64,000 nt of DNA from the IMG/VR virus record IMGVR_UViG_2718217789_000006; one strand, given 5' to 3'. The notes below the pieces were generated by a model that saw nothing but the letters and a program-made list of their open reading frames with translations, was not told the origin of the DNA and ran no database searches. Positions 3,274 through 57,700 of this stretch are shown piece by piece; position 1 is the stretch's first letter, and each line of letters starts with the position of its first letter. The stretch is from a virus (Duplodnaviria > Heunggongvirae > Uroviricota > Caudoviricetes). Both the position numbers and the translations under genes were made by a program.

Positions 3274-5866
3274 TCTGGTTATTGATTTGAGTCTGGATGC
3301 GGCCCGGTTTGATGAACAGATGGCCCGGGTACGCCGTCATTTTTCCAGTCTGGAGGCGGATGCCAGAAAAACCGCCAGTACTGTTGAACAGGGGCTGAGC
3401 CGACAGGCGCTGGCGGCACAAAAAGCCGGGATATCAGTCGGACAGTATAAGGCTGCCATGCGCACACTGCCCGCACAGTTCACGGATATTGTCACTCAGC
3501 TTGCCGGTGGTCAGAATCCCTTCCTTATCATGCTGCAGCAGGGGGGGCAGATCAGCGATTCATTCGGTGGACCGCTCAGCCTGCTTACCCTGCTGAAGGA
3601 GGAACTTCTCGGGATCAGGGATGCCTCTGAATCATCAGAGGAGTCGCTGTCAGATACGGCAAATGCACTGGCTGAAAATGCCCGGAATGCCGGTGAGCTG
3701 GGACGATTTATGTCGGTGGCCCGTGTGGCGGCAGGTGGCGGGGTTGCCGTACTGGCCGCGCTTGCTGCCGCCGCCTGGCAGGCAGAGCAGGCTGACCGGG
3801 CCTTATTGCGTTCACTGATCCTGACCGGAGGGGCGGCTGCCACCACAACGGCAGAATTGTGGAAAATGGCCGGGGTGATCAGCGATGAAGCCGGTGGTGG
3901 TATCAGACAGGCGGCAGAAAATCTGGCCCGTCTGGCAGAAAGCGGGAAATATACCGCCGGGCAGCTACGGATCATGGGGGAAACCTCTCAGAGATGGCTG
4001 CAGACGGTGGGGGACGATGCCGGGAAGGTGGAAAAAGCCTTTGAAGGGATTGCAGCAGATCTGGTGAAGGCGCTGGCCTCCCTGAATCAGCAGTATAACT
4101 TCCTGAGCGTTTCCCAGTTACGCCATATTGATGAGCTTGAGCGCACGAAAGGTAAACAGGTTGCGGTGACGGAGGCGATGTCCCTGTTTGCGGATGTCAT
4201 GAATGCACGTCTGGAGCAACTTGATAAAGCGGCCACGCCGGTGGAAAAAATCTGGGACGATGTTAAAACCTGGACTTCTGACGCATGGGCATGGATAGGT
4301 GATCATACACTGGGGGCACTCAGTCTGATCACTGACGTGGTGGCCGGAACCGTTGAACAAGTGAAGCTGCTGCTTGTGCAGGGGGATCTGGCGCTGGCTG
4401 AATTTATTCAGTCAGCCTGGGAAACGACAAAGAATGTGCCCGGCGTTGGTGCGTTGTTTGGTGAACTGGCAGAAGAGAACCGCGTATTTATTGAGAAAAC
4501 AAAACGCGATGAACTGGCGCTGAGAAAATCCATTGCGGAACGGGATGCGCGTATACGCCAGGGGGAAATGGGGTACATCAACCGCTCGCGTGCAACAGGC
4601 GTCAGCAAAGGTCCGGGGCAGCAGGAAGCCGTCAGCCGTCTGGCTGAAGAGCTGACAGGTAAAAAGCATACATCACCGAAAACGCGCTCTGCCGGGGAGA
4701 GGGAAGAGGAGCAGGCAAGAGAGGCTCTGCTTGCCCTTGAAGCTGAGCTCAGGACGCTGGAAAAACACAGCGGTGCGAATGAGAAAATCAGCCGGCAGCG
4801 CCGTGATTTATGGAAGGCGGAAAGTCAGTATGCGGTCCTGAAAGAGGCTGCCACGAAACGACAGTTATCTGAGCAGGAAAAATCCCTGCTGGCGCATAAA
4901 GACGAGACGCTGGAGTACAAACGCCAGCTGGCTGAGCTGGGCGACAAGGTTGAATACCAGAAACGCCTGAATGAGCTGGCACAGCAGGCGGTGCGGTTTG
5001 AAGAGCAGCAGAGCGCGAAGCAGGCCGCCATCAGCGCAAAAGCCCGCGGTCTCACTGACCGTCAGGCGCAGCGGGAGTCTGAAGCGCAGCGTCTTCGGGA
5101 CGTGTACGGTGATAATCCGGCTGCGCTGGCGAAGGCCACATCGGCACTGAAGAACACCAGGTCTGCGGAGGAGCAGCTTCGTGGAAGCTGGATGGCCGGG
5201 CTGAAGTCCGGCTGGGGCGAGTGGGCGGAAAGTGCGACGGACAGTTTTTCGCAGGTTAAAAGTGCTGCCACGCAGACCTTTGACGGTATTGCACAGAATA
5301 TGGCGGCGATGCTGACCGGTGCAGAGGCAGACTGGCGGGGATTCACCCGTTCGGTGCTGTCCATGATGACAGAAATCCTGCTTAAACAGGCCATGGTGGG
5401 CATTGTCGGGCGTATCGGCAGCGCCATTGGCGGTGCTTTCGGTGGTGGTGCATCTGCTTCCTCGGGGACGGCCATTCAGGCTGCGGCGGCGAACTTCCAT
5501 TTCGCGACCGGAGGATTTACGGGGACGGGCGGCAAATATGAGCCTGCGGGGATAGTTCACCGCGGGGAGTTTGTTTTCACGAAAGAGGCAACCAGCCGGA
5601 TAGGTGTGGGGAATCTTTACCGTCTGATGCGCGGCTATGCGGAAGGTGGTTATGTGGGTGGTGCCGGAAGTCCGGCGCAGATGCGGCGGGCGGAAGGTAT
5701 TAATTTTAATCAGAACAATCACGTGGTGATTCAGAACGACGGCACCAACGGACAGGCGGGGCCGCAGCTGATGAAGGCGGTGTATGACATGGCCCGCAAG
5801 GGGGCGCAGGATGAGCTCCGGCTGCAGTTGCGTGATGGCGGTATGTTATCGGGGAGCGGGCGATGA
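3254..5866 (+). CDS. H: Tail tape measure protein H
   Basis: 870 aa; N- and C-terminal regions (…LSRQALAAQKAGISVGQYKAAMRTLPAQFTD…; …AMVGIVGRIGSAIGG…HFATGGFTGTGGKYEPAGIVHRGEFVFTKEATSRIG…) match lambda gpH as recalled; GGAGG RBS; overlaps end of T. Confidence 0.9.
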   Translation: MSQPAGDLVIDLSLDAARFDEQMARVRRHFSSLEADARKTASTVEQGLSRQALAAQKAGISVGQYKAAMRTLPAQFTDIVTQLAGGQNPFLIMLQQGGQISDSFGGPLSLLTLLKEELLGIRDASESSEESLSDTANALAENARNAGELGRFMSVARVAAGGGVAVLAALAAAAWQAEQADRALLRSLILTGGAAATTTAELWKMAGVISDEAGGGIRQAAENLARLAESGKYTAGQLRIMGETSQRWLQTVGDDAGKVEKAFEGIAADLVKALASLNQQYNFLSVSQLRHIDELERTKGKQVAVTEAMSLFADVMNARLEQLDKAATPVEKIWDDVKTWTSDAWAWIGDHTLGALSLITDVVAGTVEQVKLLLVQGDLALAEFIQSAWETTKNVPGVGALFGELAEENRVFIEKTKRDELALRKSIAERDARIRQGEMGYINRSRATGVSKGPGQQEAVSRLAEELTGKKHTSPKTRSAGEREEEQAREALLALEAELRTLEKHSGANEKISRQRRDLWKAESQYAVLKEAATKRQLSEQEKSLLAHKDETLEYKRQLAELGDKVEYQKRLNELAQQAVRFEEQQSAKQAAISAKARGLTDRQAQRESEAQRLRDVYGDNPAALAKATSALKNTRSAEEQLRGSWMAGLKSGWGEWAESATDSFSQVKSAATQTFDGIAQNMAAMLTGAEADWRGFTRSVLSMMTEILLKQAMVGIVGRIGSAIGGAFGGGASASSGTAIQAAAANFHFATGGFTGTGGKYEPAGIVHRGEFVFTKEATSRIGVGNLYRLMRGYAEGGYVGGAGSPAQMRRAEGINFNQNNHVVIQNDGTNGQAGPQLMKAVYDMARKGAQDELRLQLRDGGMLSGSGR

Positions 5867-6192
5867 AAACCTTTCGCTGGAAAGTGAAGCCGGATATGGA
5901 GGTGAACTCGCAGCCATCGGTGCGTGAAGTGCGTTTTGGTGACGGGTACTCACAGCGTATGGCGGCAGGGCTGAATGCTGACCTGAAAACATACCGTGTG
6001 ACGCTTTCCGTGACCCGGGAGGAGGCCCGGCATCTGGAAGCGTTCCTGGCAGAGCACGGAGGCTGGAAGGCATTTTTGTGGAAGCCACCCTATGCATACC
6101 GGCAGATAAAGGTGACCTGTGCCGGGTGGTCTGCGCGGGTCGGGATGTTGCGCGTTGAGTTCAGCGCGGAGTTTAAGCAGGTGGTGAACTGA
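5863..6192 (+). CDS. M: Minor tail protein M
   Basis: 109 aa, MKTFRWKVKP...YRVTLSV...KVTCAGWSARVGMLRVEFSAEFKQVVN, lambda gpM-like. Confidence 0.9.
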   Translation: MKTFRWKVKPDMEVNSQPSVREVRFGDGYSQRMAAGLNADLKTYRVTLSVTREEARHLEAFLAEHGGWKAFLWKPPYAYRQIKVTCAGWSARVGMLRVEFSAEFKQVVN

Positions 6193-6890
6193 TGCAGGAT
6201 ATTCACGGGGAAAGCCTGATCGAGTCGGTTAAATCAGAGCAGTCACCGCGGGTGGTGCTCTGGGAAATCGACCTGACGGTGCAGGGTGGTGAGCGGTATT
6301 TTTTCTGCAATGAGCTGAATGAAAAAGGGGAGGCGGTTACCTGGCAGGGGCGGGAATATCAGGCATACCCGATTGACGGCAGCGGTTTTGAGATGAACGG
6401 GAAGGGCAGCAGTGCCCGCCCGTCGCTGACGGTGTCGAATCTGTTCGGTCTGGTCACCGGAATGGCGGAGGACCTGCAGAGCCTGGTGGGGGCCACGGTG
6501 GTCCGCCGCCGGGTGTATGCCCGTTTTCTGGATGCGGTGAATTTTGTGGCGGGCAATCCGGAAGCGGACCCGGAGCAGGAGCTGAGCGACCGCTGGGTGG
6601 TGGAGCAGATGTCAGAGCTGACGGCCATGACAGCCTCGTTTGTGCTGGCAACACCGACGGAGACGGACGGAGCGCTGTTTCCCGGTCGCATTATGCTGGC
6701 GAATACCTGTATGTGGGATTACCGGGGAGATGAATGCGGGTATAACGGTCCTGCGGTGGCGGATGAGTTCGACAACCCCACCACGGATATCCGTAAGGAC
6801 AGATGCAGCAAGTGCATGCGCGGGTGTGAGATGCGCGGCATGGTGGCTAATTTTGGCGGTTTCCTTTCCATCAATAAACTTTCGCAGTAA
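6192..6890 (+). CDS. L: Minor tail protein L
   Basis: 232 aa, ...VVLWEIDLT...GERYFFCNE...FPGRIMLANTCMWDYRGDECGY...FGGFLSINKLSQ, lambda gpL-like. Confidence 0.9.
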   Translation: MQDIHGESLIESVKSEQSPRVVLWEIDLTVQGGERYFFCNELNEKGEAVTWQGREYQAYPIDGSGFEMNGKGSSARPSLTVSNLFGLVTGMAEDLQSLVGATVVRRRVYARFLDAVNFVAGNPEADPEQELSDRWVVEQMSELTAMTASFVLATPTETDGALFPGRIMLANTCMWDYRGDECGYNGPAVADEFDNPTTDIRKDRCSKCMRGCEMRGMVANFGGFLSINKLSQ

Positions 6891-6900
6891 ATCCTGTTTT

Positions 6901-7644
6901 ATGACACAGACTGAATCAGCGATTCTGGTGCATGCCCGGCGGTGTGCGCCTGCGGAGTCGTGCGGCTTCGTGATAGGCACCCCGGAGGGCGAACGGTACC
7001 AGCCCTGCGTGAATATCTCCGCAGAGCCGGAGGCGTATTTTCGTATTGCGCCGGAAGACTGGCTGCAGGCAGAGATGCAGGGGGAGATTGTGGCGCTGGT
7101 TCACAGCCACCCTGGTGGTCTGCCCTGGCTGAGCGAGGCCGACCGGCGGCTGCAGATAAAGAGTGCCCTGCCCTGGTGGCTGGTCTGCCGGGGGGAAATT
7201 CATAAATTCCGCTGTGTGCCGCACCTGACCGGGCGTCGTTTTGAGCACGGGGTGACGGACTGTTACACCCTGTTCCGGGATGCATACCATCTGGCGGGGA
7301 TAACGCTGCCGGATTTTGAGCGTGAGGATGACTGGTGGCGCAACGGTCAGAACCTTTACCTGGACAATATGGCGGCGACTGGTTTTTACCGGGTGCCCCT
7401 GTCCTCTGCACAGGCGGGCGATATCCTGCTGTGCTGCTTTGGCGCATCGGTGGCCAATCATGCCGCCATATACTGCGGCAACGGTGAACTGCTTCACCAT
7501 CTGCCTGAACAACTGAGTAAACGGGAGAGGTATTCTGAAAAATGGCAACGACGAACGCATTCTGTCTGGCGTCACCGCCACTGGCACGCATCTGCCTTCA
7601 CGGGGATTTGCAACGATTTGGCCGCCGCCTCAGCCTGTACGTGA
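6901..7644 (+). CDS. K: Tail assembly protein K (JAB/MPN plus NlpC/P60-like domains)
   Basis: Starts at ATG 6901 (MTQTESAILVHARRCAPAESCGFV...HSHPGG...); the ORF-track start at 6640 is an upstream in-frame extension overlapping L and is rejected. Confidence 0.9.
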   Translation: MTQTESAILVHARRCAPAESCGFVIGTPEGERYQPCVNISAEPEAYFRIAPEDWLQAEMQGEIVALVHSHPGGLPWLSEADRRLQIKSALPWWLVCRGEIHKFRCVPHLTGRRFEHGVTDCYTLFRDAYHLAGITLPDFEREDDWWRNGQNLYLDNMAATGFYRVPLSSAQAGDILLCCFGASVANHAAIYCGNGELLHHLPEQLSKRERYSEKWQRRTHSVWRHRHWHASAFTGICNDLAAASACT

Positions 7645-8219
7645 ACACGGCAGCGGAAGCCATCCGTGCCCTGTCGCTGCAGATGCCGGGATTCCGCCGT
7701 CAGATGAACGAAGGCTGGTACCAGATACGTATTCGCGGTGAGGACACGGCACCGGAGGCGGTGTACGCCCGTCTTCACGAACCTCTGGGTGAGGGGGCGG
7801 TCATCCATATTGTGCCGCGACTGGCCGGAGCCGGAAAGGGCGGACTGCAGATTGTGCTGGGGGCAGCAGCCATCGTGGGCTCTTTCTTCACCGCCGGCGC
7901 AACGATGGCGTTGTGGGGCGCAGCCCTGAGTGCCGGAGGGCTGACTGCCACCACGATGCTGTTCTCACTGGGTGCCAGCATGATACTGGGCGGTGTGGCC
8001 CAGATGCTGGCACCGAAGGCAAAAACACCGGAGTACAGGGCGACGGATAACGGTAAACAGAACACGTATTTTTCGTCACTGGATAACATGATTGCCCAGG
8101 GGAACCCGATGCCGGTGCCTTATGGTGAAATGCTGGTTGGTTCACGACGGATATCCCAGGACATCAGCACCCGTGATGAGGGCGGAGACGGGAAAGTGGT
8201 GGTTATCGGGCGGGGATGA
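7542..8219 (+). CDS. I: Tail assembly protein I
   Basis: 225 aa, ...ICLHGDLQRFGRR...AVIHIVPRLAGAGKGG...GKQNTYFSSLDNMIAQGNPMPVPYGEM..., lambda gpI-like; overlaps 3' end of K. Confidence 0.85.
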   Translation: MATTNAFCLASPPLARICLHGDLQRFGRRLSLYVNTAAEAIRALSLQMPGFRRQMNEGWYQIRIRGEDTAPEAVYARLHEPLGEGAVIHIVPRLAGAGKGGLQIVLGAAAIVGSFFTAGATMALWGAALSAGGLTATTMLFSLGASMILGGVAQMLAPKAKTPEYRATDNGKQNTYFSSLDNMIAQGNPMPVPYGEMLVGSRRISQDISTRDEGGDGKVVVIGRG

Positions 8220-8264
8220 AAATAAAAAAATCCCGCAGAGTTAGCGGAGCTGCGGGAGAGAACG

Positions 8265-8384
8265 ATGAAGATTAACGTTATGGAGTTATTTTTCAGGCAT
8301 CAAAAAAGTAATGCAGCGTCATTATTGCGGCTACAGGCAATTGCCGGAAATGTGAAGAGTTTCAGAAATTTTATTCCGTCATGA
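8265..8384 (+). CDS. Hypothetical 39-aa protein in an AT-rich insert between I and J
   Basis: ATG with GGGAGAG upstream; MKINVMELFFRHQKSNAASLLRLQAIAGNVKSFRNFIPS; bracketed by two GC-rich hairpins; no homology recognised. Confidence 0.25.
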   Translation: MKINVMELFFRHQKSNAASLLRLQAIAGNVKSFRNFIPS

Positions 8385-8459
8385 CACAGGCACCCTCCGG
8401 GGTGCCTGTTGTTTTCTGGCATAAACAGATTCAGACATCAGACAGGAGAGGGGGACAGA

Positions 8460-49520: not shown

Positions 49521-52166
49521 ATGGCAGGTAATTTTGCCGATCTGACAGCCGTGCTGACACTGGATTCTGCCCGTTTTTCTGAAGAGGCAGCGCGGGTAAA
49601 AAAAGAGCTGGGTGAAACCAGTGCGCTTGCTGATTTGATGTCCGGGAAAGTCAGTCAGTCTTTCAGAAAACAGGCTGATGCTGCTGAGCAGAGTCTGAGC
49701 CGACAGGCGCTGGCGGCACAAAAAGCCGGGATATCAGTCGGACAGTATAAGGCTGCCATGCGCACACTGCCCGCACAGTTCACGGATATTGTCACTCAGC
49801 TTGCCGGTGGTCAGAATCCCTTCCTTATCATGCTGCAGCAGGGGGGGCAGATCAGCGATTCATTCGGTGGACCGCTCAGCCTGCTTACCCTGCTGAAGGA
49901 GGAACTTCTCGGGATCAGGGATGCCTCTGAATCATCAGAGGAGTCGCTGTCAGATACGGCAAATGCACTGGCTGAAAATGCCCGGAATGCCGGTGAGCTG
50001 GGACGATTTATGTCGGTGGCCCGTGTGGCGGCAGGTGGCGGGGTTGCCGTACTGGCCGCGCTTGCTGCCGCCGCCTGGCAGGCAGAGCAGGCTGACCGGG
50101 CCTTATTGCGTTCACTGATCCTGACCGGAGGGGCGGCTGCCACCACAACGGCAGAATTGTGGAAAATGGCCGGGGTGATCAGCGATGAAGCCGGTGGTGG
50201 TATCAGACAGGCGGCAGAAAATCTGGCCCGTCTGGCAGAAAGCGGGAAATATACCGCCGGGCAGCTACGGATCATGGGGGAAACCTCTCAGAGATGGCTG
50301 CAGACGGTGGGGGACGATGCCGGGAAGGTGGAAAAAGCCTTTGAAGGGATTGCAGCAGATCCGGTGAAGGCGCTGGCCTCCCTGAATCAGCAGTATAACT
50401 TCCTGAGCGTTTCCCAGTTACGCCATATTGATGAGCTTGAGCGCACGAAAGGTAAACAGGCTGCGGTGACGGAGGCGATGTCCCTGTTTGCGGATGTCAT
50501 GAATGCACGTCTGGAGCAACTTGATAAAGCGGCCACGCCGGTGGAAAAAATCTGGGACGATGTTAAAACCTGGACTTCTGACGCATGGGCATGGATAGGT
50601 GATCATACACTGGGGGCACTCAGTCTGATCACTGACGTGGTGGCCGGAACCGTTGAACAGGTGAAGCTGCTGCTTGTGCAGGGGGATCTGGCGCTGGCTG
50701 AATTTATTCAGTCAGCCTGGGAAACGACAAAGAATGTGCCCGGCGTTGGTGCGTTGTTTGGTGAACTGGCAGAAGAGAACCGCGTATTTATTGAGAAAAC
50801 AAAACGCGATGAACTGGCGCTGAGAAAATCCATTGCGGAACGGGATGCGCGTATACGCCAGGGGGAAATGGGGTACATCAACCGCTCGCGTGCAACAGGC
50901 GTCAGCAAAGGTCCTGGGCAGCAGGAAGCCGTCAGCCGTCTGGCTGAAGAGCTGACAGGTAAAAAGTATACATCACCGAAAACGCGCTCTGCCGGGGAGA
51001 GGGAAGAGGAGCAGGCAAGAGAGGCTCTGCTTGCCCTTGAAGCTGAGCTCAGGACGCTGGAAAAACACAGCGGTGCGAATGAGAAAATTAGCCGGCAGCG
51101 CCGTGATTTATGGAAGGCGGAAAGTCAGTATGCGGTCCTGAAAGAGGCTGCCACGAAACGGCAGTTATCCGGGCAGGAAAAATCCCTGCTGGCCCATGAG
51201 AAAGAGACGCTGGAGTACAAACGCCAGCTGGCTGAGCTGGGCGACAAGGTTGAATACCAGAAACGCCTGAATGAGCTGGCACAGCAGGCGGTGCGGTTTG
51301 AAGAGCAGCAGAGCGCGAAGCAGGCCGCCATCAGCGCAAAAGCCCGCGGTCTCACTGACCGTCAGGCGCAGCGGGAGTCTGAAGCGCAGCGTCTTCGGGA
51401 CGTGTACGGTGATAATCCGCAGGCGCTGGCCCGGGTCACCGGGGCACTGAAACAGACATGGGCGGATGAAGACATGCTGCGCGGTGACTGGCTGGCCGGG
51501 CTGAAGTCCGGCTGGGGGGAGTGGGCGGAAAGTGCGACGGACAGTTTTTCGCAGGTTAAAAGTGCTGCCACGCAGACCTTTGACGGTATTGCACAGAATA
51601 TGGCGGCGATGCTGACCGGTGCAGAGGCAGACTGGCGGGGATTCACCCGTTCGGTGCTGTCCATGATGACAGAAATCCTGCTTAAACAGGCCATGGTGGG
51701 CATTGTCGGGCGTATCGGCAGCGCCATTGGCGGTGCTTTCGGTGGTGGTGCATCTGCTTCCTCGGGGACGGCCATTGAGGCTGCGGCGGCGAACTTCCAT
51801 TTCGCGACCGGAGGATTTACGGGGACGGGCGGCAAATATGAGCCTGCGGGGATAGTTCACCGCGGGGAGTTTGTTTTCACGAAAGAGGCAACCAGCCGGA
51901 TAGGTGTGGGGAATCTTTACCGTCTGATGCGCGGCTATGCGGAAGGTGGTTATGTGGGTGGTGCCGGAAGTCCGGCGCAGATGCGGCGGGCGGAAGGTAT
52001 TAATTTTAATCAGAACAATCACGTGGTGATTCAGAACGACGGTATCAACGGACAGGCGGGGCCGCAGCTGATGAAGGCGGTGTATGACATGGCCCGCAAG
52101 GGGGCGCAGGATGAGCTCCGGCTGCAGTTGCGTGATGGCGGTATGTTATCAGGGAGCGGGCGATGA
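49521..52166 (+). CDS. H: Tail tape measure protein H
   Basis: ATG 49521 with AGGAGGTG RBS; N-terminal ~60 aa differ from copy A, remainder near-identical. Confidence 0.9.
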   Translation: MAGNFADLTAVLTLDSARFSEEAARVKKELGETSALADLMSGKVSQSFRKQADAAEQSLSRQALAAQKAGISVGQYKAAMRTLPAQFTDIVTQLAGGQNPFLIMLQQGGQISDSFGGPLSLLTLLKEELLGIRDASESSEESLSDTANALAENARNAGELGRFMSVARVAAGGGVAVLAALAAAAWQAEQADRALLRSLILTGGAAATTTAELWKMAGVISDEAGGGIRQAAENLARLAESGKYTAGQLRIMGETSQRWLQTVGDDAGKVEKAFEGIAADPVKALASLNQQYNFLSVSQLRHIDELERTKGKQAAVTEAMSLFADVMNARLEQLDKAATPVEKIWDDVKTWTSDAWAWIGDHTLGALSLITDVVAGTVEQVKLLLVQGDLALAEFIQSAWETTKNVPGVGALFGELAEENRVFIEKTKRDELALRKSIAERDARIRQGEMGYINRSRATGVSKGPGQQEAVSRLAEELTGKKYTSPKTRSAGEREEEQAREALLALEAELRTLEKHSGANEKISRQRRDLWKAESQYAVLKEAATKRQLSGQEKSLLAHEKETLEYKRQLAELGDKVEYQKRLNELAQQAVRFEEQQSAKQAAISAKARGLTDRQAQRESEAQRLRDVYGDNPQALARVTGALKQTWADEDMLRGDWLAGLKSGWGEWAESATDSFSQVKSAATQTFDGIAQNMAAMLTGAEADWRGFTRSVLSMMTEILLKQAMVGIVGRIGSAIGGAFGGGASASSGTAIEAAAANFHFATGGFTGTGGKYEPAGIVHRGEFVFTKEATSRIGVGNLYRLMRGYAEGGYVGGAGSPAQMRRAEGINFNQNNHVVIQNDGINGQAGPQLMKAVYDMARKGAQDELRLQLRDGGMLSGSGR

Positions 52167-52492
52167 AAACATTTCGCTGGAAAGTGAAGCCGGATATGGA
52201 GGTGAACTCGCAGCCATCGGTGCGTGAAGTGCGTTTTGGTGACGGGTACTCACAGCGTATGGCGGCAGGGCTGAATGCTGACCTGAAAACATACCGTGTG
52301 ACGCTTTCCGTGACCCGGGAGGAGGCCCGGCATCTGGAAGCGTTCCTGGCAGAGCACGGAGGCTGGAAGGCATTTTTGTGGAAGCCACCCTATGCATACC
52401 GGCAGATAAAGGTGACCTGTGCCGGGTGGTCTGCGCGGGTCGGGATGTTGCGCGTTGAGTTCAGCGCGGAGTTTAAGCAGGTGGTGAACTGA
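52163..52492 (+). CDS. M: Minor tail protein M
   Basis: Identical protein to 5863..6192. Confidence 0.9.
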   Translation: MKTFRWKVKPDMEVNSQPSVREVRFGDGYSQRMAAGLNADLKTYRVTLSVTREEARHLEAFLAEHGGWKAFLWKPPYAYRQIKVTCAGWSARVGMLRVEFSAEFKQVVN

Positions 52493-53190
52493 TGCAGGAT
52501 ATTCACGGGGAAAGCCTGATCGAGTCGGTTAAATCAGAGCAGTCACCGCGGGTGGTGCTCTGGGAAATCGACCTGACGGTGCAGGGTGGTGAGCGGTATT
52601 TTTTCTGCAATGAGCTGAATGAAAAAGGGGAGGCGGTTACCTGGCAGGGGCGGGAATATCAGGCATACCCGATTGACGGCAGCGGTTTTGAGATGAACGG
52701 GAAGGGCAGCAGTGCCCGCCCGTCGCTGACGGTGTCGAATCTGTTCGGTCTGGTCACCGGAATGGCGGAGGACCTGCAGAGCCTGGTGGGGGCCACGGTG
52801 GTCCGCCGCCGGGTGTATGCCCGTTTTCTGGATGCGGTGAATTTTGTGGCGGGCAATCCGGAAGCGGACCCGGAGCAGGAGCTGAGCGACCGCTGGGTGG
52901 TGGAGCAGATGTCAGAGCTGACGGCCATGACAGCCTCGTTTGTGCTGGCAACACCGACGGAGACGGACGGAGCGCTGTTTCCCGGTCGCATTATGCTGGC
53001 GAATACCTGTATGTGGGATTACCGGGGAGATGAATGCGGGTATAACGGTCCTGCGGTGGCGGATGAGTTCGACAACCCCACCACGGATATCCGTAAGGAC
53101 AGATGCAGCAAGTGCATGCGCGGGTGTGAGATGCGCGGCATGGTGGCTAATTTTGGCGGTTTCCTTTCCATCAATAAACTTTCGCAGTAA
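52492..53190 (+). CDS. L: Minor tail protein L
   Basis: Identical protein to 6192..6890. Confidence 0.9.
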   Translation: MQDIHGESLIESVKSEQSPRVVLWEIDLTVQGGERYFFCNELNEKGEAVTWQGREYQAYPIDGSGFEMNGKGSSARPSLTVSNLFGLVTGMAEDLQSLVGATVVRRRVYARFLDAVNFVAGNPEADPEQELSDRWVVEQMSELTAMTASFVLATPTETDGALFPGRIMLANTCMWDYRGDECGYNGPAVADEFDNPTTDIRKDRCSKCMRGCEMRGMVANFGGFLSINKLSQ

Positions 53191-53200
53191 ATCCTGTTTT

Positions 53201-53944
53201 ATGACACAGACTGAATCAGCGATTCTGGTGCATGCCCGGCGGTGTGCGCCTGCGGAGTCGTGCGGCTTCGTGATAGGCACCCCGGAGGGCGAACGGTACC
53301 AGCCCTGCGTGAATATCTCCGCAGAGCCGGAGGCGTATTTTCGTATTGCGCCGGAAGACTGGCTGCAGGCAGAGATGCAGGGGGAGATTGTGGCGCTGGT
53401 TCACAGCCACCCTGGTGGTCTGCCCTGGCTGAGCGAGGCCGACCGGCGGCTGCAGATAAAGAGTGCCCTGCCCTGGTGGCTGGTCTGCCGGGGGGAAATT
53501 CATAAATTCCGCTGTGTGCCGCACCTGACCGGGCGTCGTTTTGAGCACGGGGTGACGGACTGTTACACCCTGTTCCGGGATGCATACCATCTGGCGGGGA
53601 TAACGCTGCCGGATTTTGAGCGTGAGGATGACTGGTGGCGCAACGGTCAGAACCTTTACCTGGACAATATGGCGGCGACTGGTTTTTACCGGGTGCCCCT
53701 GTCCTCTGCACAGGCGGGCGATATCCTGCTGTGCTGCTTTGGCGCATCGGTGGCCAATCATGCCGCCATATACTGCGGCAACGGTGAACTGCTTCACCAT
53801 CTGCCTGAACAACTGAGTAAACGGGAGAGGTATTCTGAAAAATGGCAACGACGAACGCATTCTGTCTGGCGTCACCGCCACTGGCACGCATCTGCCTTCA
53901 CGGGGATTTGCAACGATTTGGCCGCCGCCTCAGCCTGTACGTGA
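53201..53944 (+). CDS. K: Tail assembly protein K
   Basis: Identical to 6901..7644. Confidence 0.9.
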   Translation: MTQTESAILVHARRCAPAESCGFVIGTPEGERYQPCVNISAEPEAYFRIAPEDWLQAEMQGEIVALVHSHPGGLPWLSEADRRLQIKSALPWWLVCRGEIHKFRCVPHLTGRRFEHGVTDCYTLFRDAYHLAGITLPDFEREDDWWRNGQNLYLDNMAATGFYRVPLSSAQAGDILLCCFGASVANHAAIYCGNGELLHHLPEQLSKRERYSEKWQRRTHSVWRHRHWHASAFTGICNDLAAASACT

Positions 53945-54519
53945 ACACGGCAGCGGAAGCCATCCGTGCCCTGTCGCTGCAGATGCCGGGATTCCGCCGT
54001 CAGATGAACGAAGGCTGGTACCAGATACGTATTCGCGGTGAGGACACGGCACCGGAGGCGGTGTACGCCCGTCTTCACGAACCTCTGGGTGAGGGGGCGG
54101 TCATCCATATTGTGCCGCGACTGGCCGGAGCCGGAAAGGGCGGACTGCAGATTGTGCTGGGGGCAGCAGCCATCGTGGGCTCTTTCTTCACCGCCGGCGC
54201 AACGATGGCGTTGTGGGGCGCAGCCCTGAGTGCCGGAGGGCTGACTGCCACCACGATGCTGTTCTCACTGGGTGCCAGCATGATACTGGGCGGTGTGGCC
54301 CAGATGCTGGCACCGAAGGCAAAAACACCGGAGTACAGGGCGACGGATAACGGTAAACAGAACACGTATTTTTCGTCACTGGATAACATGATTGCCCAGG
54401 GGAACCCGATGCCGGTGCCTTATGGTGAAATGCTGGTTGGTTCACGACGGATATCCCAGGACATCAGCACCCGTGATGAGGGCGGAGACGGGAAAGTGGT
54501 GGTTATCGGGCGGGGATGA
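53842..54519 (+). CDS. I: Tail assembly protein I
   Basis: Identical to 7542..8219. Confidence 0.85.
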   Translation: MATTNAFCLASPPLARICLHGDLQRFGRRLSLYVNTAAEAIRALSLQMPGFRRQMNEGWYQIRIRGEDTAPEAVYARLHEPLGEGAVIHIVPRLAGAGKGGLQIVLGAAAIVGSFFTAGATMALWGAALSAGGLTATTMLFSLGASMILGGVAQMLAPKAKTPEYRATDNGKQNTYFSSLDNMIAQGNPMPVPYGEMLVGSRRISQDISTRDEGGDGKVVVIGRG

Positions 54520-54759
54520 AAATAAAAAAATCCCGCAGAGTTAGCGGAGCTGCGGGAGAGAACGATGAAGATTAACGTTATGGAGTTATTTTTCAGGCAT
54601 CAAAAAAGTAATGCAGCGTCATTATTGCGGCTACAGGCAATTGCCGGAAATGTGAAGAGTTTCAGAAATTTTATTCCGTCATGACACAGGCACCCTCCGG
54701 GGTGCCTGTTGTTTTCTGGCATAAACAGATTCAGACATCAGACAGGAGAGGGGGACAGA

Positions 54760-57700
54760 GTGGGTAAAGGGGGCGGCAAGGGGCACACGCCGGTAGAGGC
54801 AAAGGACAATCTTAAGTCCACGCAGATGATGAGCGTGATTGACGCCATTGGTGAAGGGCCGATTGAAGGTCCGGTGAAGGGGCTGCAGAGTATTCTGGTG
54901 AACAAAACCCCACTGACGGACACGGACGGCAATCCCGTGATACATGGTGTGACAGCGGTCTGGCGCGCCGGGGAGCAGGAGCAGACACCACCTGAAGGCT
55001 TTGAGTCCTCCGGGGCGGAAACCGCACTGGGCGTGGAAGTGACGAAGGCAAAGCCGGTGACGCGCACCATTACGTCCGCGAACATTGACCGCCTGCGGGT
55101 CACCTTCGGGGTGCAGTCACTGTTGGAGACCACCTCAAAGGGCGACCGTAATCACTCTTCTGTCCGACTGCTGATTCAGTTGCAGCGTAACGGTAACTGG
55201 GTGACGGAAAAGGATGTCACCATTAACGGCAAGACCACCTCGCAGTTTCTGGCGTCGGTGATTCTGGATAATCTGCCTGAGCGGCCCTTTAACATCCGGA
55301 TGGTCCGGGAGACAGCGGACAGCACCTCGGACCAGCTGCAGAATAAGACGCTCTGGTCGTCATACACCGAAATCATCGATGTGAAACAGTGCTACCCGAA
55401 CACGGCGATTGTGGGGCTGCAGGTGGATGCGGAGCAGTTTGGCGGTCAGCAGATGACGGTGAACTACCATATCCGCGGTCGCATCATCCAGGTACCGTCA
55501 AACTATGACCCGGAAAAACGCACGTACAGCGGCATCTGGGACGGCAGCCTGAAACCGGCATACAGCAACAACCCTGCCTGGTGCCTGTGGGACATGCTGA
55601 CCCACCCGCGCTACGGAATGGGAAAACGCCTGGGGGCGGCGGATGTGGACAAGTGGGCGCTGTATGCCATTGCGCAGTACTGCGACCAGACGGTCCCGGA
55701 TGGTTTCGGGGGCACAGAGCCGCGGATGACTTTCAATGCGTACCTGTCACAACAGCGTAAGGCGTGGGACGTTCTCAGTGATTTCTGCTCGGCGATGCGC
55801 TGTATGCCGGTATGGAACGGGCAGACGCTGACGTTTGTGCAGGACCGTCCGTCAGATGTGGTGTGGCCCTACACCAGCAGTGATGTGGTGGTGGATGATA
55901 ACGGCGTGGGGTTTCGCTACAGCTTCAGCGCCCTGAAGGACCGCCACACGGCGGTGGAGGTGAATTACACCGACCCGCAGAACGGCTGGCAGACCTCCAC
56001 GGAACTGGTGGAAGACCCGGAAGCCATACTGCGCTACGGACGCAACCTGCTGAAGATGGATGCGTTCGGCTGCACCAGTCGCGGTCAGGCCCACCGTGCC
56101 GGGCTGTGGGTGATAAAGACCGGACTGCTGGAAACGCAGACGGTGGATTTCACGCTCGGGTCACAGGGGCTGCGTCACACACCCGGTGACATTATTGAAA
56201 TCTGTGATAACGACTATGCCGGGACCATGACCGGCGGACGTATCCTGTCCATCGATGCCGCCAGCCGCACCCTGACACTGGACCGTGAGGTGACCCTGCC
56301 GGAGACCGGTGCCGCCACGGTGAACCTGATTAACGGCAGCGGTAAGCCGGTGAGCGTGGCCATCACTGCACACCCCGCGCCGGACCGGATACAGGTCAGC
56401 ACCCTGCCTGATGGCGTGGAGACATACGGTGTGTGGGGGCTCTCCCTGCCGTCACTGCGCCGTCGCCTGTTCCGCTGTGTCTCCGTCCGGGAAAACACGG
56501 ACGGCACCTTTGCCATCACGGCGGTGCAGCACGTACCGGAAAAAGAAGCCATCGTGGATAACGGGGCGCACTTTGACGGCGACCAGAGCGGCACCCTGAA
56601 CAGCGTCATCCCTCCGGCAGTGCAGCACCTGACGGTGGAGGTGAGTGCAGCTGACAGCCAGTATCTGGCGCAGGCGAAATGGGACACGCCGCGGGTGGTG
56701 AAGGGCGTGCGCTTCAGTCTGCGCCTGACCAGTGGAAGCGGTCAGGACAGCCGTCTGGTGACCACCGCCATCACTGCGGATACAGAGCATCGTTTCAGTG
56801 GTCTGCCGCTCGGGGAATACACCCTGACAGTCAGGGCAATTAACAGTTATGGCCAGCAGGGGGAACCGGCCATCACCACCTTCCGGATTAACGCGCCAGC
56901 AAAACCCGCCACCATTGAACTGACGCCGGGGTATTTTCAGATAACGGCGGTACCGGTGCTGGCGGTGTATGACCCGACGGTGCAGTTTGAGTTCTGGTTT
57001 TCGGAAAAAACGCATCACGAACACGGCACAGGTGGAAAAATCTGCCCGTTATCTGGGGAGCGGCAGTCAGTGGACTGTCCAGGGAAGCCGGATTAAGCCG
57101 GGGACGGATTTCTGGTTTTACGTGCGCAGCGTCAACCTGGTGGGGAAATCTGCGTTTGTGGAAGTCAGCGGGCAGCCCAGCAATGATGGTGAAGGGTATC
57201 TGGAATTTTTCCGGGAAAAAATAGGAAAACTGCATCTGGCTCAGGGGCTATGGGAGCTGATAGACAACAGCCAGCTTGCGGATGAGATGGCGGAGATGAA
57301 GACCACCATCACGGAAACCCGCAATGAAATCACACAGACGGTCAGTAAAACGCTGGAGAACCAGAGCGCCACTATACAGCAGATACAGCGCGTGCAGAAG
57401 GACACAAATGATGACCTGGCTGCGCTGTACATGCTGAAGGTTCAAAAAACGAAAGACGGCATTCCCTATGTGGCCGGGATTGGTGCAGGGATTGAGGATA
57501 CTGATGGCCAGCCACTGAGCAACATACTGCTGCTGGCTGACCGTATCGCGATGATAAATCCGGAGAGCGGCAACAGCACGCCGTTATTTGTGGCGCAGGG
57601 GAATCAGCTGTTCATGAACGACGTGTTCCTGAAGCGACTGTTTGCGGTGAGTATCACCTCGTCCGGCAATCCCCCGACGTTTTCCCTGACGCCGGACGGG

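What the first reader, a model, noticed from the sequence alone, without database searches (positions are those of the whole stretch)
8220..8459. AT-rich 240-bp insert between I and J bounded by two perfect GC-rich hairpins, with a 39-codon ORF
In lambda I and J are adjacent. Here an insert separates them in both copies (also 54520..54759). It begins with an A-run plus CCCGCAG...CTGCGGG hairpin (reads as an intrinsic terminator on the minus strand). It contains a 39-codon ORF with an SD. It ends with ACAGGCACCC-TCCG-GGGTGCCTGT followed by TGTTTTCT (terminator-like on the plus strand) just before the J ribosome-binding site. This could be a small protein or sRNA cassette, or an attenuator that tunes J expression relative to upstream tail genes.
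Basis: seen in the sequence. Interest (0 to 1): 0.55.

Follow-up and report, generated by a model that had tools for sequence, protein, structure and literature searches.

The report
Known prophage small RNA gene (PasB/EcOnc22)
The AT-rich insert between tail genes I and J is an already described prophage cassette that makes a small Hfq-binding regulatory RNA (PasB in EPEC, EcOnc22-24 in E. coli O157) from the opposite strand; the 39-codon reading frame in it is not a gene.

Summary
In detail: both copies (8220-8459, 54520-54759) are identical, AT-rich (GC 0.45 against about 0.60 in I and J) and bounded by two strong hairpins.

The I-proximal hairpin plus U7 run is the terminator of a minus-strand small RNA, about 8299 to 8224. 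This RNA is homologous to PasB of EPEC E2348/69, which lies at the same I-J position on the same strand. The spacer is 100% identical to the three Sakai loci where Tree et al. 2014 mapped the Hfq-bound sRNAs EcOnc22/23/24 (about 85 nt, destabilised without Hfq).

The 39-codon ORF is not conserved: its ATG is ACG or ACA in about half of the variants, and length and frame vary.

The J-proximal hairpin is a conserved plus-strand terminator-like element. It is not part of the sRNA; lambda has an analogous hairpin in its own 60-nt I-J gap.

New here, by inference only:
- Every cassette carries an invariant CRP-like site (8351-8366) about 60 bp upstream of the mapped 5' end.
- Related prophages stack two to four such cassettes, or a sodC gene, at this junction.

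Verdict: already known, and ordinary for EHEC/EPEC lambdoid prophages.

The parts
8224..8299 (-). PasB/EcOnc22-type Hfq-dependent small RNA gene, about 76 nt in this variant. The 5' end is placed by homology to the mapped E2348/69 PasB 5' end; an alternative start near 8314 is not excluded.
   Evidence: Published PasB (NC_011601.1 1466343->1466261, minus strand) aligned to the window. blastn of PasB hits 8293->8224 at 81.7% over 71 nt, E = 5e-14. The spacer is 100% identical to the Sakai Sp11/Sp14/Sp15 spacers that hold EcOnc22-24.
8224..8257 (-). Intrinsic terminator of the sRNA. The stem pairs 8231-8238 with 8250-8257, the loop is 11 nt, and the U7 tail is 8230->8224.
   Evidence: The stem arms and the A/U run are invariant in all variants, while the loop varies in sequence and in length. 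The PasB northern probe AATCCCGCAGTGATCGCGGAGCT covers this element.
8267..8276 (-). Most conserved single-stranded stretch of the sRNA body (GUUAAUCUUC on the RNA), a candidate seed just upstream of the terminator.
   Evidence: Alignments. Zhu et al. [quoted passage not shown]
8305..8310 (-). Candidate -10 hexamer TACTTT (pattern TAnnnT).
   Evidence: TAnnnT is present at this position in all 59 distinct promoter modules collected on the site motif. The mapped E2348/69 5' end is the 7th nt after it.
8329..8334 (-). Weak -35-like element (GTAGCC here; GTGGCG or GTGGCA in most variants), 18 nt upstream of the -10.
   Evidence: The block CtGTgGc is conserved. The promoter scan calls GTGGCA-18-TACAAT in a paralogous cassette.
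8321..8326 (-). Alternative -10-like hexamer AATAAT (TATAAT in E2348/69). It would give a start near 8314.
   Evidence: The hexamer is lost in several cassettes (AACCTT, GTGCAT, GATAAA), so it is the less likely core promoter.
8351..8366 (.). CRP-like site TGTGA-AGAGTT-TCAGA, centred 8358.5, which is about -59.5 to -60.5 from the inferred start.
   Evidence: 1 mismatch to TGTGA-N6-TCACA. The half-sites are invariant and the central 6 nt variable in every sRNA cassette found without reference to the site. The distance to the -10 is fixed.
8386..8417 (+). Plus-strand terminator-like hairpin (10 bp, loop UCCG) followed by UGUUUUCU. It lies between the sRNA promoter and the J ribosome-binding site.
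   Evidence: -25.8 kcal/mol, z = -5.6. 98% of cells are paired in 11 distinct variants, with one compensatory pair and two G.U changes that fit the plus strand only. The ~342-nt spacer class replaces it with a different terminator-like hairpin. Lambda has an analogous hairpin.
8265..8384 (+). 39-codon ORF, judged spurious.
8445..8462 (+). J Shine-Dalgarno (GGAGAGGGGG) and GTG start codon at 8460 (context).
   Evidence: The N-terminus MGKGGGKG matches lambda J, MGKGSSKG.
54524..54599 (-). Second, identical copy of the sRNA gene. Its CRP-like site is 54651-54666 and its plus-strand hairpin is 54686-54717.

Best explanation
The I-J spacer is a moron-type insertion that carries a small, independently transcribed gene on the strand antisense to the tail operon. 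The gene encodes an Hfq-dependent, trans-acting small RNA. It was described as EcOnc22/23/24 in E. coli O157:H7 Sakai and as PasB in EPEC E2348/69.

Transcription starts near 8299 (minus strand). It runs through a variable 5' part and a conserved single-stranded stretch (GUUAAUCUUC). It ends at the CCCGCAG/CTGCGGG hairpin plus U7, five bases beyond the stop codon of I.

The RNA is made in the lysogen, is stabilised by Hfq, and pairs with host and island mRNAs. This is shown for PasB by RIL-seq; the individual targets of this variant are unknown.

Inferred here, not shown: the promoter is weak (-35 GTAGCC, 18-nt spacer, -10 TACTTT). It is probably activated by cAMP-CRP bound to the invariant site at about -60, a class I arrangement.

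The second hairpin is not part of the sRNA. It is a plus-strand terminator-like element that precedes J in these phages and, in another sequence, in lambda. It most likely stops non-antiterminated sense transcription before J in the lysogen, or stabilises upstream late mRNA. Q-modified polymerase would read through it.

The 39-codon ORF is a by-product of the AT-rich sequence.
For: Position, strand and homology:
- PasB lies between the tail assembly gene and gpJ of prophage PP6, on the antisense strand. It is 83 nt, and its northern probe matches the hairpin.
- The whole spacer aligns with the window at 84%, and blastn gives E = 5e-14.

Experimental evidence carried by identical sequence:
- The window spacer is 100% identical to the Sakai Sp15, Sp14 and Sp11 spacers.
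- Table S2 of Tree 2014 lists Hfq-CRAC peaks EcOnc22/23/24 in those three prophages. All three are on the chromosomal strand opposite to I and J, with a northern band of ~85 nt that is destabilised in delta-hfq.
- The coordinate shift between NC_002695.1 and NC_002695.2 was calibrated with AgvB (+137 to +146) and with StxS = EcOnc15 (+123 to +130). After conversion the EcOnc22 peak falls at window 8313-8230 on the minus strand.
- PasB is strongly Hfq-dependent (log2 fold change -6.8 and -2.4 in delta-hfq). It is almost always the second RNA in RIL-seq chimeras and has 37 interactions.

Structure:
- A terminator with a U7 tail is preceded by a U-rich single strand.

Promoter inference:
- The TAnnnT, GTGGC and TGTGA-N6-TCAGA blocks keep fixed spacing across cassettes.
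- PasB is higher in overnight LB than in DMEM, the opposite of the CRP-repressed Spot 42.

By elimination, Zhu et al. [quoted passage not shown] NC_049945 is 100% identical to the window here.
Against: - No expression data exist for this window itself; everything rests on identical or homologous sequence in other strains.
- The EcOnc coordinates refer to an older genome version. The conversion is bracketed by two calibrators but is not exact.
- The predicted length in this variant (about 76-80 nt) is a little below the reported ~85 nt. A start near 8314 from the AATAAT hexamer (91 nt) is not excluded.
- The -35 and -10 of this particular variant are poor, and the simple sigma-70 scan found no promoter in 7900-8800.
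- The CRP-like site has a mismatch at a strongly contacted position (TCAGA instead of TCACA). Its centre is 1-2 bp off the canonical -61.5.
- The LB-versus-DMEM difference could equally reflect stationary phase or oxygen limitation.
- There is no Rfam family to confirm membership.
Confidence: 0.9

Rival explanations
1. The insert encodes a 39-residue small protein translated from the plus strand (8265-8384) as part of the late operon or from its own promoter.
For: An ATG-initiated ORF with a GGGAGAG motif 6 nt upstream exists in both copies. Between the window and E2348/69, four of the five differences in the first nine codons are synonymous.
Against: Among 41 distinct spacers, the aligned start codon is ACG or ACA in about half. 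ORF lengths from that position range from 7 to 54 codons in the short class, and indels shift the frame so that the peptides are unrelated after about 10 residues. There is no Pfam or PHROG family. The only annotated 'hypothetical protein' in this region (phage 1720a-02) is a different ORF that overlaps the end of I. The 'SD' is the terminator stem.
Confidence: 0.03
2. The functional core of the insert is the plus-strand hairpin: an attenuator or terminator that lowers transcription or changes mRNA stability so that J is made in smaller amounts than upstream tail proteins. On this view the rest is passenger DNA.
For: The hairpin plus U tract is strong and conserved, with one compensatory change and G.U changes that fit the plus strand. 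The ~342-nt class replaces it with another terminator-like hairpin. Lambda has an analogous hairpin in its 60-nt I-J gap. In tandem arrays only the J-proximal unit carries it.
Against: It explains only about 35 of the 240 nt and none of the conserved minus-strand features. Late transcription in lambdoid phages is Q-antiterminated and resistant to intrinsic terminators (established lambda biology), so an attenuating effect in lytic growth is doubtful. There is no measurement of 3' ends or of J levels. One variant (L035) has a C.A mismatch on the plus strand.
Confidence: 0.3
3. The sRNA acts mainly in cis as an antisense RNA against the I-J junction of late mRNA. It would target its own prophage and the other prophages that carry the identical spacer, and so modulate tail production or interfere with co-resident or superinfecting phages.
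For: The RNA is perfectly complementary to the late transcript over its whole length. The window has two identical copies, and genomes carry a median of 3 and up to 9. The promoter and the late operon are convergent.
Against: PasB behaves as a classical trans-acting Hfq sRNA, with 37 partners in RIL-seq. The sRNA body is the most variable part of the cassette, with only a short core conserved; that pattern fits seed-based trans pairing better than cis antisense control. No cis effect has been reported.
Confidence: 0.1

Closest known systems
PasB sRNA of EPEC E2348/69 (Pearl Mizrahi et al. 2021, PMC8550237; distribution study by Zhu, Shabalina and Storz 2026, bioRxiv 10.64898/2026.05.13.724894)
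   Same: Same genomic slot (tail assembly gene I - gpJ spacer of a lambdoid prophage) and same antisense strand. Same terminator stem and U7 tail, same conserved AUCUUC core, and the same upstream promoter blocks. blastn E = 5e-14.
   Different: 81.7% identity over 71 nt. The 5' third is a different mosaic segment, and this variant is about 7 nt shorter. The loop of the terminator differs at 3 positions, which are mismatches to the published probe.
EcOnc22 / EcOnc23 / EcOnc24 of E. coli O157:H7 Sakai (Tree et al. 2014, PMC4104026, Table S2; listed with 'targets unknown' in Sy and Tree 2021, PMC7873438)
   Same: The DNA of the three Sakai loci is 100% identical to the window spacer. The strand is the same. 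After coordinate conversion the Hfq-CRAC peak covers 8313-8230. Northern band ~85 nt, destabilised without Hfq.
   Different: Nothing at the sequence level. Neither paper read here that lists EcOnc22-24 places it between I and J. The PasB table does not list these as EHEC homologues of PasB, so the equivalence EcOnc22-24 = PasB variant is drawn here.
Other prophage sRNAs of EHEC: AgvB/AsxR anti-sRNAs, StxS, HnrS (EcOnc10-12), STnc100
   Same: All are Hfq-binding sRNAs carried as small independent units ('morons') in lambdoid prophages, often in several copies per genome.
   Different: Their positions differ: AgvB and AsxR sit downstream of PR', and HnrS is a different 66-nt RNA in Sp9, Sp10 and Sp12. 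Their sequences differ too; Rfam models for AgvB, AsxR and STnc100 do not hit this region.
Class I CRP-dependent promoters (lac P1 type; textbook knowledge)
   Same: A TGTGA-N6-TCACA-like site about 60 bp upstream of the start, combined with weak -35 and -10 elements.
   Different: The site has one core mismatch and is centred at about -59.5 to -60.5 rather than -61.5. CRP dependence is untested.

Membership tests
PasB / EcOnc22-24 sRNA | Located in the I-J intergenic spacer of a lambdoid prophage, on the strand antisense to the tail genes | tested here: met
PasB / EcOnc22-24 sRNA | Sequence homology to the published sRNA | tested here: met
   blastn gives 81.7% over 71 of 83 nt, E = 5e-14, for both copies. 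The spacer is 100% identical to the Sakai EcOnc22-24 loci.
PasB / EcOnc22-24 sRNA | Rho-independent terminator with a long U tail (Hfq-binding module) | tested here: met
   8-bp GC-rich stem plus U7.
PasB / EcOnc22-24 sRNA | Expressed as a discrete ~80-nt RNA that binds Hfq and depends on it for stability | not testable with these tools
   Shown in the literature for identical DNA (EcOnc22: Hfq-CRAC, northern ~85 nt, destabilised in delta-hfq) and for the EPEC homologue. No data exist for the strain of this window.
Intrinsic (Rho-independent) terminator, plus strand, upstream of J | GC-rich hairpin immediately followed by a U-rich tract, conserved as a structure | tested here: met
   Actual termination was not measured.
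Small protein gene | Start codon, reading frame and length conserved among homologues | tested here: not met
Class I CRP-activated promoter | Match to the CRP consensus half-sites TGTGA-N6-TCACA | tested here: met
   9 of 10 core positions match. The half-sites are invariant and the spacer variable across cassettes chosen independently of the site.
Class I CRP-activated promoter | Site centred near -61.5 (or one or more helical turns further upstream) relative to the start | tested here: inconclusive
   The centre is at -59.5 to -60.5 from the homology-inferred start. It would be at -44.5 if the alternative AATAAT hexamer is used.
Class I CRP-activated promoter | Transcription depends on cAMP-CRP | not testable with these tools
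   Only circumstantial: PasB is higher in overnight LB than in DMEM, opposite to Spot 42.
Moron (independent transcription unit inserted between two phage genes; Juhala et al. 2000 concept) | Present or absent between otherwise adjacent conserved genes, deviant base composition, own promoter and terminator | tested here: met
   The lambda I-J gap is 60 nt. Spacer GC is 0.40-0.45 against 0.60 in the flanks. The cargo at this site varies: 1-4 sRNA cassettes or sodC. The unit has its own terminator and a putative promoter.

The most novel reading that the evidence does not exclude
The I-J junction of EHEC/STEC lambdoid prophages is a dedicated landing site for a modular family of sRNA cassettes. 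These share one CRP-responsive promoter module and one terminator but carry different seeds. They can be stacked two to four deep, or swapped for sodC. Carbon-source status would then switch on a strain-specific set of prophage sRNAs, and those sRNAs may also act in cis on the late I-J mRNA of every prophage with the same spacer.
Probability: 0.3. Interest if true: 0.5.

Novelty: already known. Interest (0 to 1): 0.27.

Why it matters
The feature itself is a rediscovery. Its value is mostly in annotation. RefSeq leaves this spacer blank in about 800 of 5,426 complete E. coli genomes, and Rfam 15 has no model for it.

Two names in the literature can now be tied to the same locus and the same I-J position: EcOnc22-24 in EHEC and PasB in EPEC.

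Three further points are not mentioned in the papers read here. They are the invariant CRP-like site at about -60 in every cassette, the tandem arrays of paralogous cassettes, and the alternative sodC cargo. If confirmed, they would give this sRNA of unknown function a testable regulatory input (glucose/cAMP). They would also provide a clear example of modular sRNA evolution at a phage moron site.

Tried and rejected
- Rfam. No family reaches threshold in the spacer, at the gathering score or at E up to 10. The window's only hits are STnc100 and sok, elsewhere.
- AgvB/AsxR anti-sRNAs were my first guess from memory. Rejected: they lie downstream of PR', are 51-60 nt, and their models do not match.
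- HnrS, a multicopy prophage sRNA with up to nine copies, looked promising. It is EcOnc10-12 in other prophages.
- The window is not a single circular genome read twice. At offset 46300 only 3395-10709 repeats.
- The small-protein reading was rejected on conservation and on family searches.
- The AATAAT/TATAAT hexamer (8321-8326) as the core -10, with a class II CRP site, fits less well. The spacing would put the site at -44.5, the hexamer is lost in several cassettes, and the mapped 5' end is 15 nt further downstream. It is kept as an alternative.
- A sigma-54 reading of the conserved TGGC block has the wrong GG/GC spacing (read directly from the sequences).
- A plus-strand promoter that would make a second, sense sRNA ending at the 8386-8417 hairpin: none found by scan or by eye.
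- TSS and Term-seq tables of Sy et al. 2020 are not held. The full PasB target list in the RIL-seq table was too large to read within the look-up cap.

Full report
**1. What is in the sequence**

Gene I (tail assembly) ends with TGA at 8217-8219. J starts at GTG 8460, behind a GGAGAGGGGG Shine-Dalgarno.
- an A-run (8224-8230);
- the CCCGCAG/CTGCGGG inverted repeat (8232-8238 and 8250-8256);
- a 39-codon ATG ORF (8265-8384);
- the perfect 10-bp palindrome ACAGGCACCC-TCCG-GGGTGCCTGT (8386-8409), followed by TGTTTTCT.

The copy at 54520-54759 is identical. It lies in a longer repeat, 3395-10709 = 49695-57009, which is exact from 5872 to 10709. The window therefore holds the tail regions of two lambdoid prophages and is not one genome read twice.

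The spacer has 44.6% GC, against about 60% in I and J. In lambda the I-J gap is only 60 nt. A consensus scan calls the first hairpin a minus-strand terminator and the second a plus-strand terminator. Both fold far better than shuffled sequence.

**2. Identity of the insert**

The spacer is common. It is 100% identical in VT1-Sakai, CP-1639 and Stx2a_WGPS6, and 80-88% identical in about 90 other Stx and lambdoid phages. It is present in 802 of 5,426 complete E. coli genomes, with a median of three copies and up to nine. It is never annotated. Rfam 15 has no match.

The literature gave the identification. Table S6 of Pearl Mizrahi et al. 2021 lists PasB, an 83-nt sRNA of EPEC E2348/69. It lies in prophage PP6 on the minus strand at 1466343->1466261, between E2348C_1436 and E2348C_1437. 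Its northern probe is AATCCCGCAGTGATCGCGGAGCT.
- Those two genes are the tail assembly protein and gpJ.
- The E2348/69 spacer aligns with the window spacer over its whole length at 84% identity.
- The probe is the window's first hairpin with three loop differences.
- The published PasB ends map to window 8299 (5') and 8224 (3', the last U of the U7 run).
- blastn of PasB hits both window copies, at 8293->8224 and 54593->54524 (E = 5e-14).

**3. The same locus in O157**

The window spacer is 100% identical to the I-J spacers of Sakai prophages Sp15, Sp14 and Sp11. Table S2 of Tree et al. 2014 lists three homologous orphan Hfq-binding sites in those prophages: EcOnc22 (Sp15), EcOnc23 (Sp14) and EcOnc24 (Sp11). 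All three are on the chromosomal plus strand, while I and J are on the minus strand there. The northern band is ~85 nt and is destabilised in delta-hfq.

Those coordinates refer to NC_002695.1; the copy available here is NC_002695.2. I calibrated the shift with two sRNAs of known position:
- AgvB: Rfam hit at 1941920-1941981 against a listed peak of 1941783-1941835, giving +137 to +146.
- StxS = EcOnc15: its 74-nt 3' fragment ends at the tR' terminator, 2926079-2926152 in version 2, against a listed peak of 2925956-2926022, giving +123 to +130.

The three I-J loci lie between these calibrators and show the same offset relative to J. With any shift from +123 to +146, the EcOnc22 peak falls at window 8313-8230 on the minus strand, on the body of the PasB-like RNA. 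Without a shift it would fall on 8436-8376. Both calibrators exclude that.

EcOnc22-24 is therefore the O157 variant of PasB. The PasB table did not note this equivalence, and a 2021 review still lists the targets of EcOnc22 as unknown. Zhu et al. [quoted passage not shown] By elimination, their RefSeq representative for it is NC_049945, which is identical to the window here.

**4. Anatomy from comparison**

I fetched eighty IMG/VR loci with the J N-terminus and eighty more with the terminator pattern. Together they give 41 distinct spacers and 59 distinct promoter modules.

The following are invariant or nearly so, read on the minus strand from upstream to downstream:
- ATAAAAnT;
- TCTGAAnnTCTTCACA;
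- TTT;
- a CtGTgGc block;
- a TATAAT-like block, lost in several cassettes;
- ctgcGTTAnnnT, followed by a T-run;
- further downstream, a short core (U/C)UAAUCUU(C/U);
- the terminator stem and U-run.

The 5' third of the RNA, the terminator loop (9-16 nt) and the DNA between the promoter blocks are mosaic and highly variable.

The mapped E2348/69 5' end is the seventh base after the TAnnnT hexamer. GTGGC(G/A) sits 18 nt upstream of that hexamer. The promoter scan reports exactly this pair (GTGGCA-18-TACAAT) in one paralogous cassette. I therefore take 8310-8305 (TACTTT) as the -10 and 8334-8329 as a weak -35. The start is then at 8297-8300, giving a 74-80-nt RNA in this variant.

The reported ~85 nt is slightly larger. 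A start near 8314 from the AATAAT hexamer (91 nt) remains possible.

**5. A CRP-like site**

The invariant 16-mer is TGTGA-AGAGTT-TCAGA on the plus strand (8351-8366). It matches the CRP consensus TGTGA-N6-TCACA with one mismatch. The 64-kb window has six such matches against 2.1 expected, and two of the six are these sites.

Several observations support it as a binding site:
- In loci chosen without reference to the site, the two half-sites never vary while the central six bases do (AGAGTT, AGATAT, AGAAAT, AGAATT, ATAAAC, AGAAAA).
- The distance from its centre to the -10 is fixed at 53.5 nt, with one exception at 52.5. That places it at about -60 from the start, close to the class I position of lac P1 (-61.5, textbook value).
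- PasB is more abundant in overnight LB than in exponential DMEM, while the CRP-repressed Spot 42 behaves the opposite way in the same data.

None of the papers I read mentions CRP or a promoter for PasB. This remains an inference. The mismatch lies at a strongly contacted position, the phasing is 1-2 bp off, and stationary phase or low oxygen could explain the expression pattern equally well.

**6. The ORF**

From the aligned start position the codon is ATG in roughly half of the distinct spacers and ACG or ACA in the rest. ORF lengths are 7-54 codons in the short class. Indels change the frame, so the peptides share only MKIN/TKIN...ELF at the start. That conserved piece is the complement of the sRNA's conserved core. 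There is no Pfam or PHROG family. The ORF is not a gene.

**7. The second hairpin**

It is conserved. In 11 distinct variants 98% of cells are paired. There is one compensatory C-G to U-A pair. Two one-sided changes give G.U on the plus strand, which would be A.C on the minus strand. One recombinant-looking variant fits the minus strand only. The U tract is on the plus strand.

Four observations show it is not part of the sRNA unit:
- It lies upstream of the sRNA promoter.
- In spacers with several cassettes only the J-proximal one is followed by it.
- The ~342-nt spacer class has a different, bidirectional-looking terminator at the same place.
- Lambda's own 60-nt gap contains AACCGCC-TGCG-GGCGGTT followed by TTTGTCATTT.

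A plus-strand hairpin with a U tract in front of J is therefore a feature of the tail operon, and the sRNA cassette sits between the stop codon of I and that hairpin. Its role could not be tested. Candidate roles are stopping non-antiterminated transcription in the lysogen, or acting as a 3' stabiliser of processed late mRNA.

**8. A variable cargo site**

Besides the ~240-nt form there are three others:
- a ~342-nt form;
- an 851-nt form in which a Cu,Zn superoxide dismutase gene (Pfam Sod_Cu, E = 3.9e-32) lies antisense, upstream of the same sRNA body and terminator, with the CRP-like module replaced;
- arrays of two to four sRNA cassettes with different bodies, and in one type a different terminator, each with its own CRP-like module.

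The four-cassette array of L139 occurs in 67 complete E. coli genomes, mainly LEE-negative STEC serotypes, and is unannotated.

**9. Verdict**

The insert is a known prophage sRNA gene (PasB = EcOnc22-24) on the minus strand, followed by a separate, conserved plus-strand hairpin in front of J. The small-protein reading is rejected.

The promoter architecture, the possible CRP control and the modular arrays are new inferences of moderate interest that need simple experiments.

Noticed in passing
window 34708-34908 (+) and 28169-28349 (+): Rfam gathering-level hits to STnc100 (148 bits) and to the sok antitoxin RNA of a hok/sok-type module (61 bits). They lie in the region between the two tail-gene copies.
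   Followed up: no
window 3395-10709 and 49695-57009: A 7.3-kb direct repeat at an offset of 46,300 bp, exact from 5872 to 10709. It covers tail genes through the first two thirds of J, so the window contains two lambdoid prophage tail regions that diverge inside J.
   Followed up: partly
L011, L022, L033, L044, L046 (I-J spacer, 851 nt): A Cu,Zn superoxide dismutase gene (sodC; Pfam Sod_Cu E = 3.9e-32) is inserted antisense at the same I-J junction. It keeps the PasB-type -10, body and terminator downstream of its own terminator, but lacks the CRP-like module.
   Followed up: partly
L139:318-1260; L129:4414-4900; L134; L145:4018-4500; L091; L105: Two to four tandem PasB-like cassettes lie between I and J. 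Each has its own terminator, a different body or seed, and the same CRP-like promoter module. One paralogue uses a different terminator (TCTCCCGT...ACGGGAGA). The L139 array is present in 67 of 5,426 complete E. coli genomes, mostly O91, O178:H19, O22:H8 and similar STEC, and is unannotated.
   Followed up: partly
L088:146-205 (phage lambda 15445-15504): Lambda's own short I-J gap contains a plus-strand hairpin with a U-rich tail (AACCGCC-TGCG-GGCGGTT, then TTTGTCATTT). It is analogous in position to the window's 8386-8417 element.
   Followed up: no
window 8424-8443; L016: A short heptamer repeat (CAGATTC / CAGACAT / CAGACAG) lies just upstream of the J Shine-Dalgarno. One variant (L016) has two extra CAGACAT units, so the copy number varies.
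   Followed up: no
window 12007-12606 (+): A 199-codon ORF immediately after J has a signal-peptide-like start and resembles Lom-family outer-membrane proteins in position and sequence style. This was judged by eye only.
   Followed up: no
NC_002695.2 against NC_002695.1 (Sakai): Coordinates in the 2014 EcOnc table are shifted by about +123 to +146 bp relative to the current RefSeq version in the 1.9-2.9 Mb region. Anyone reusing that table on the current record will misplace the sRNAs.
   Followed up: yes
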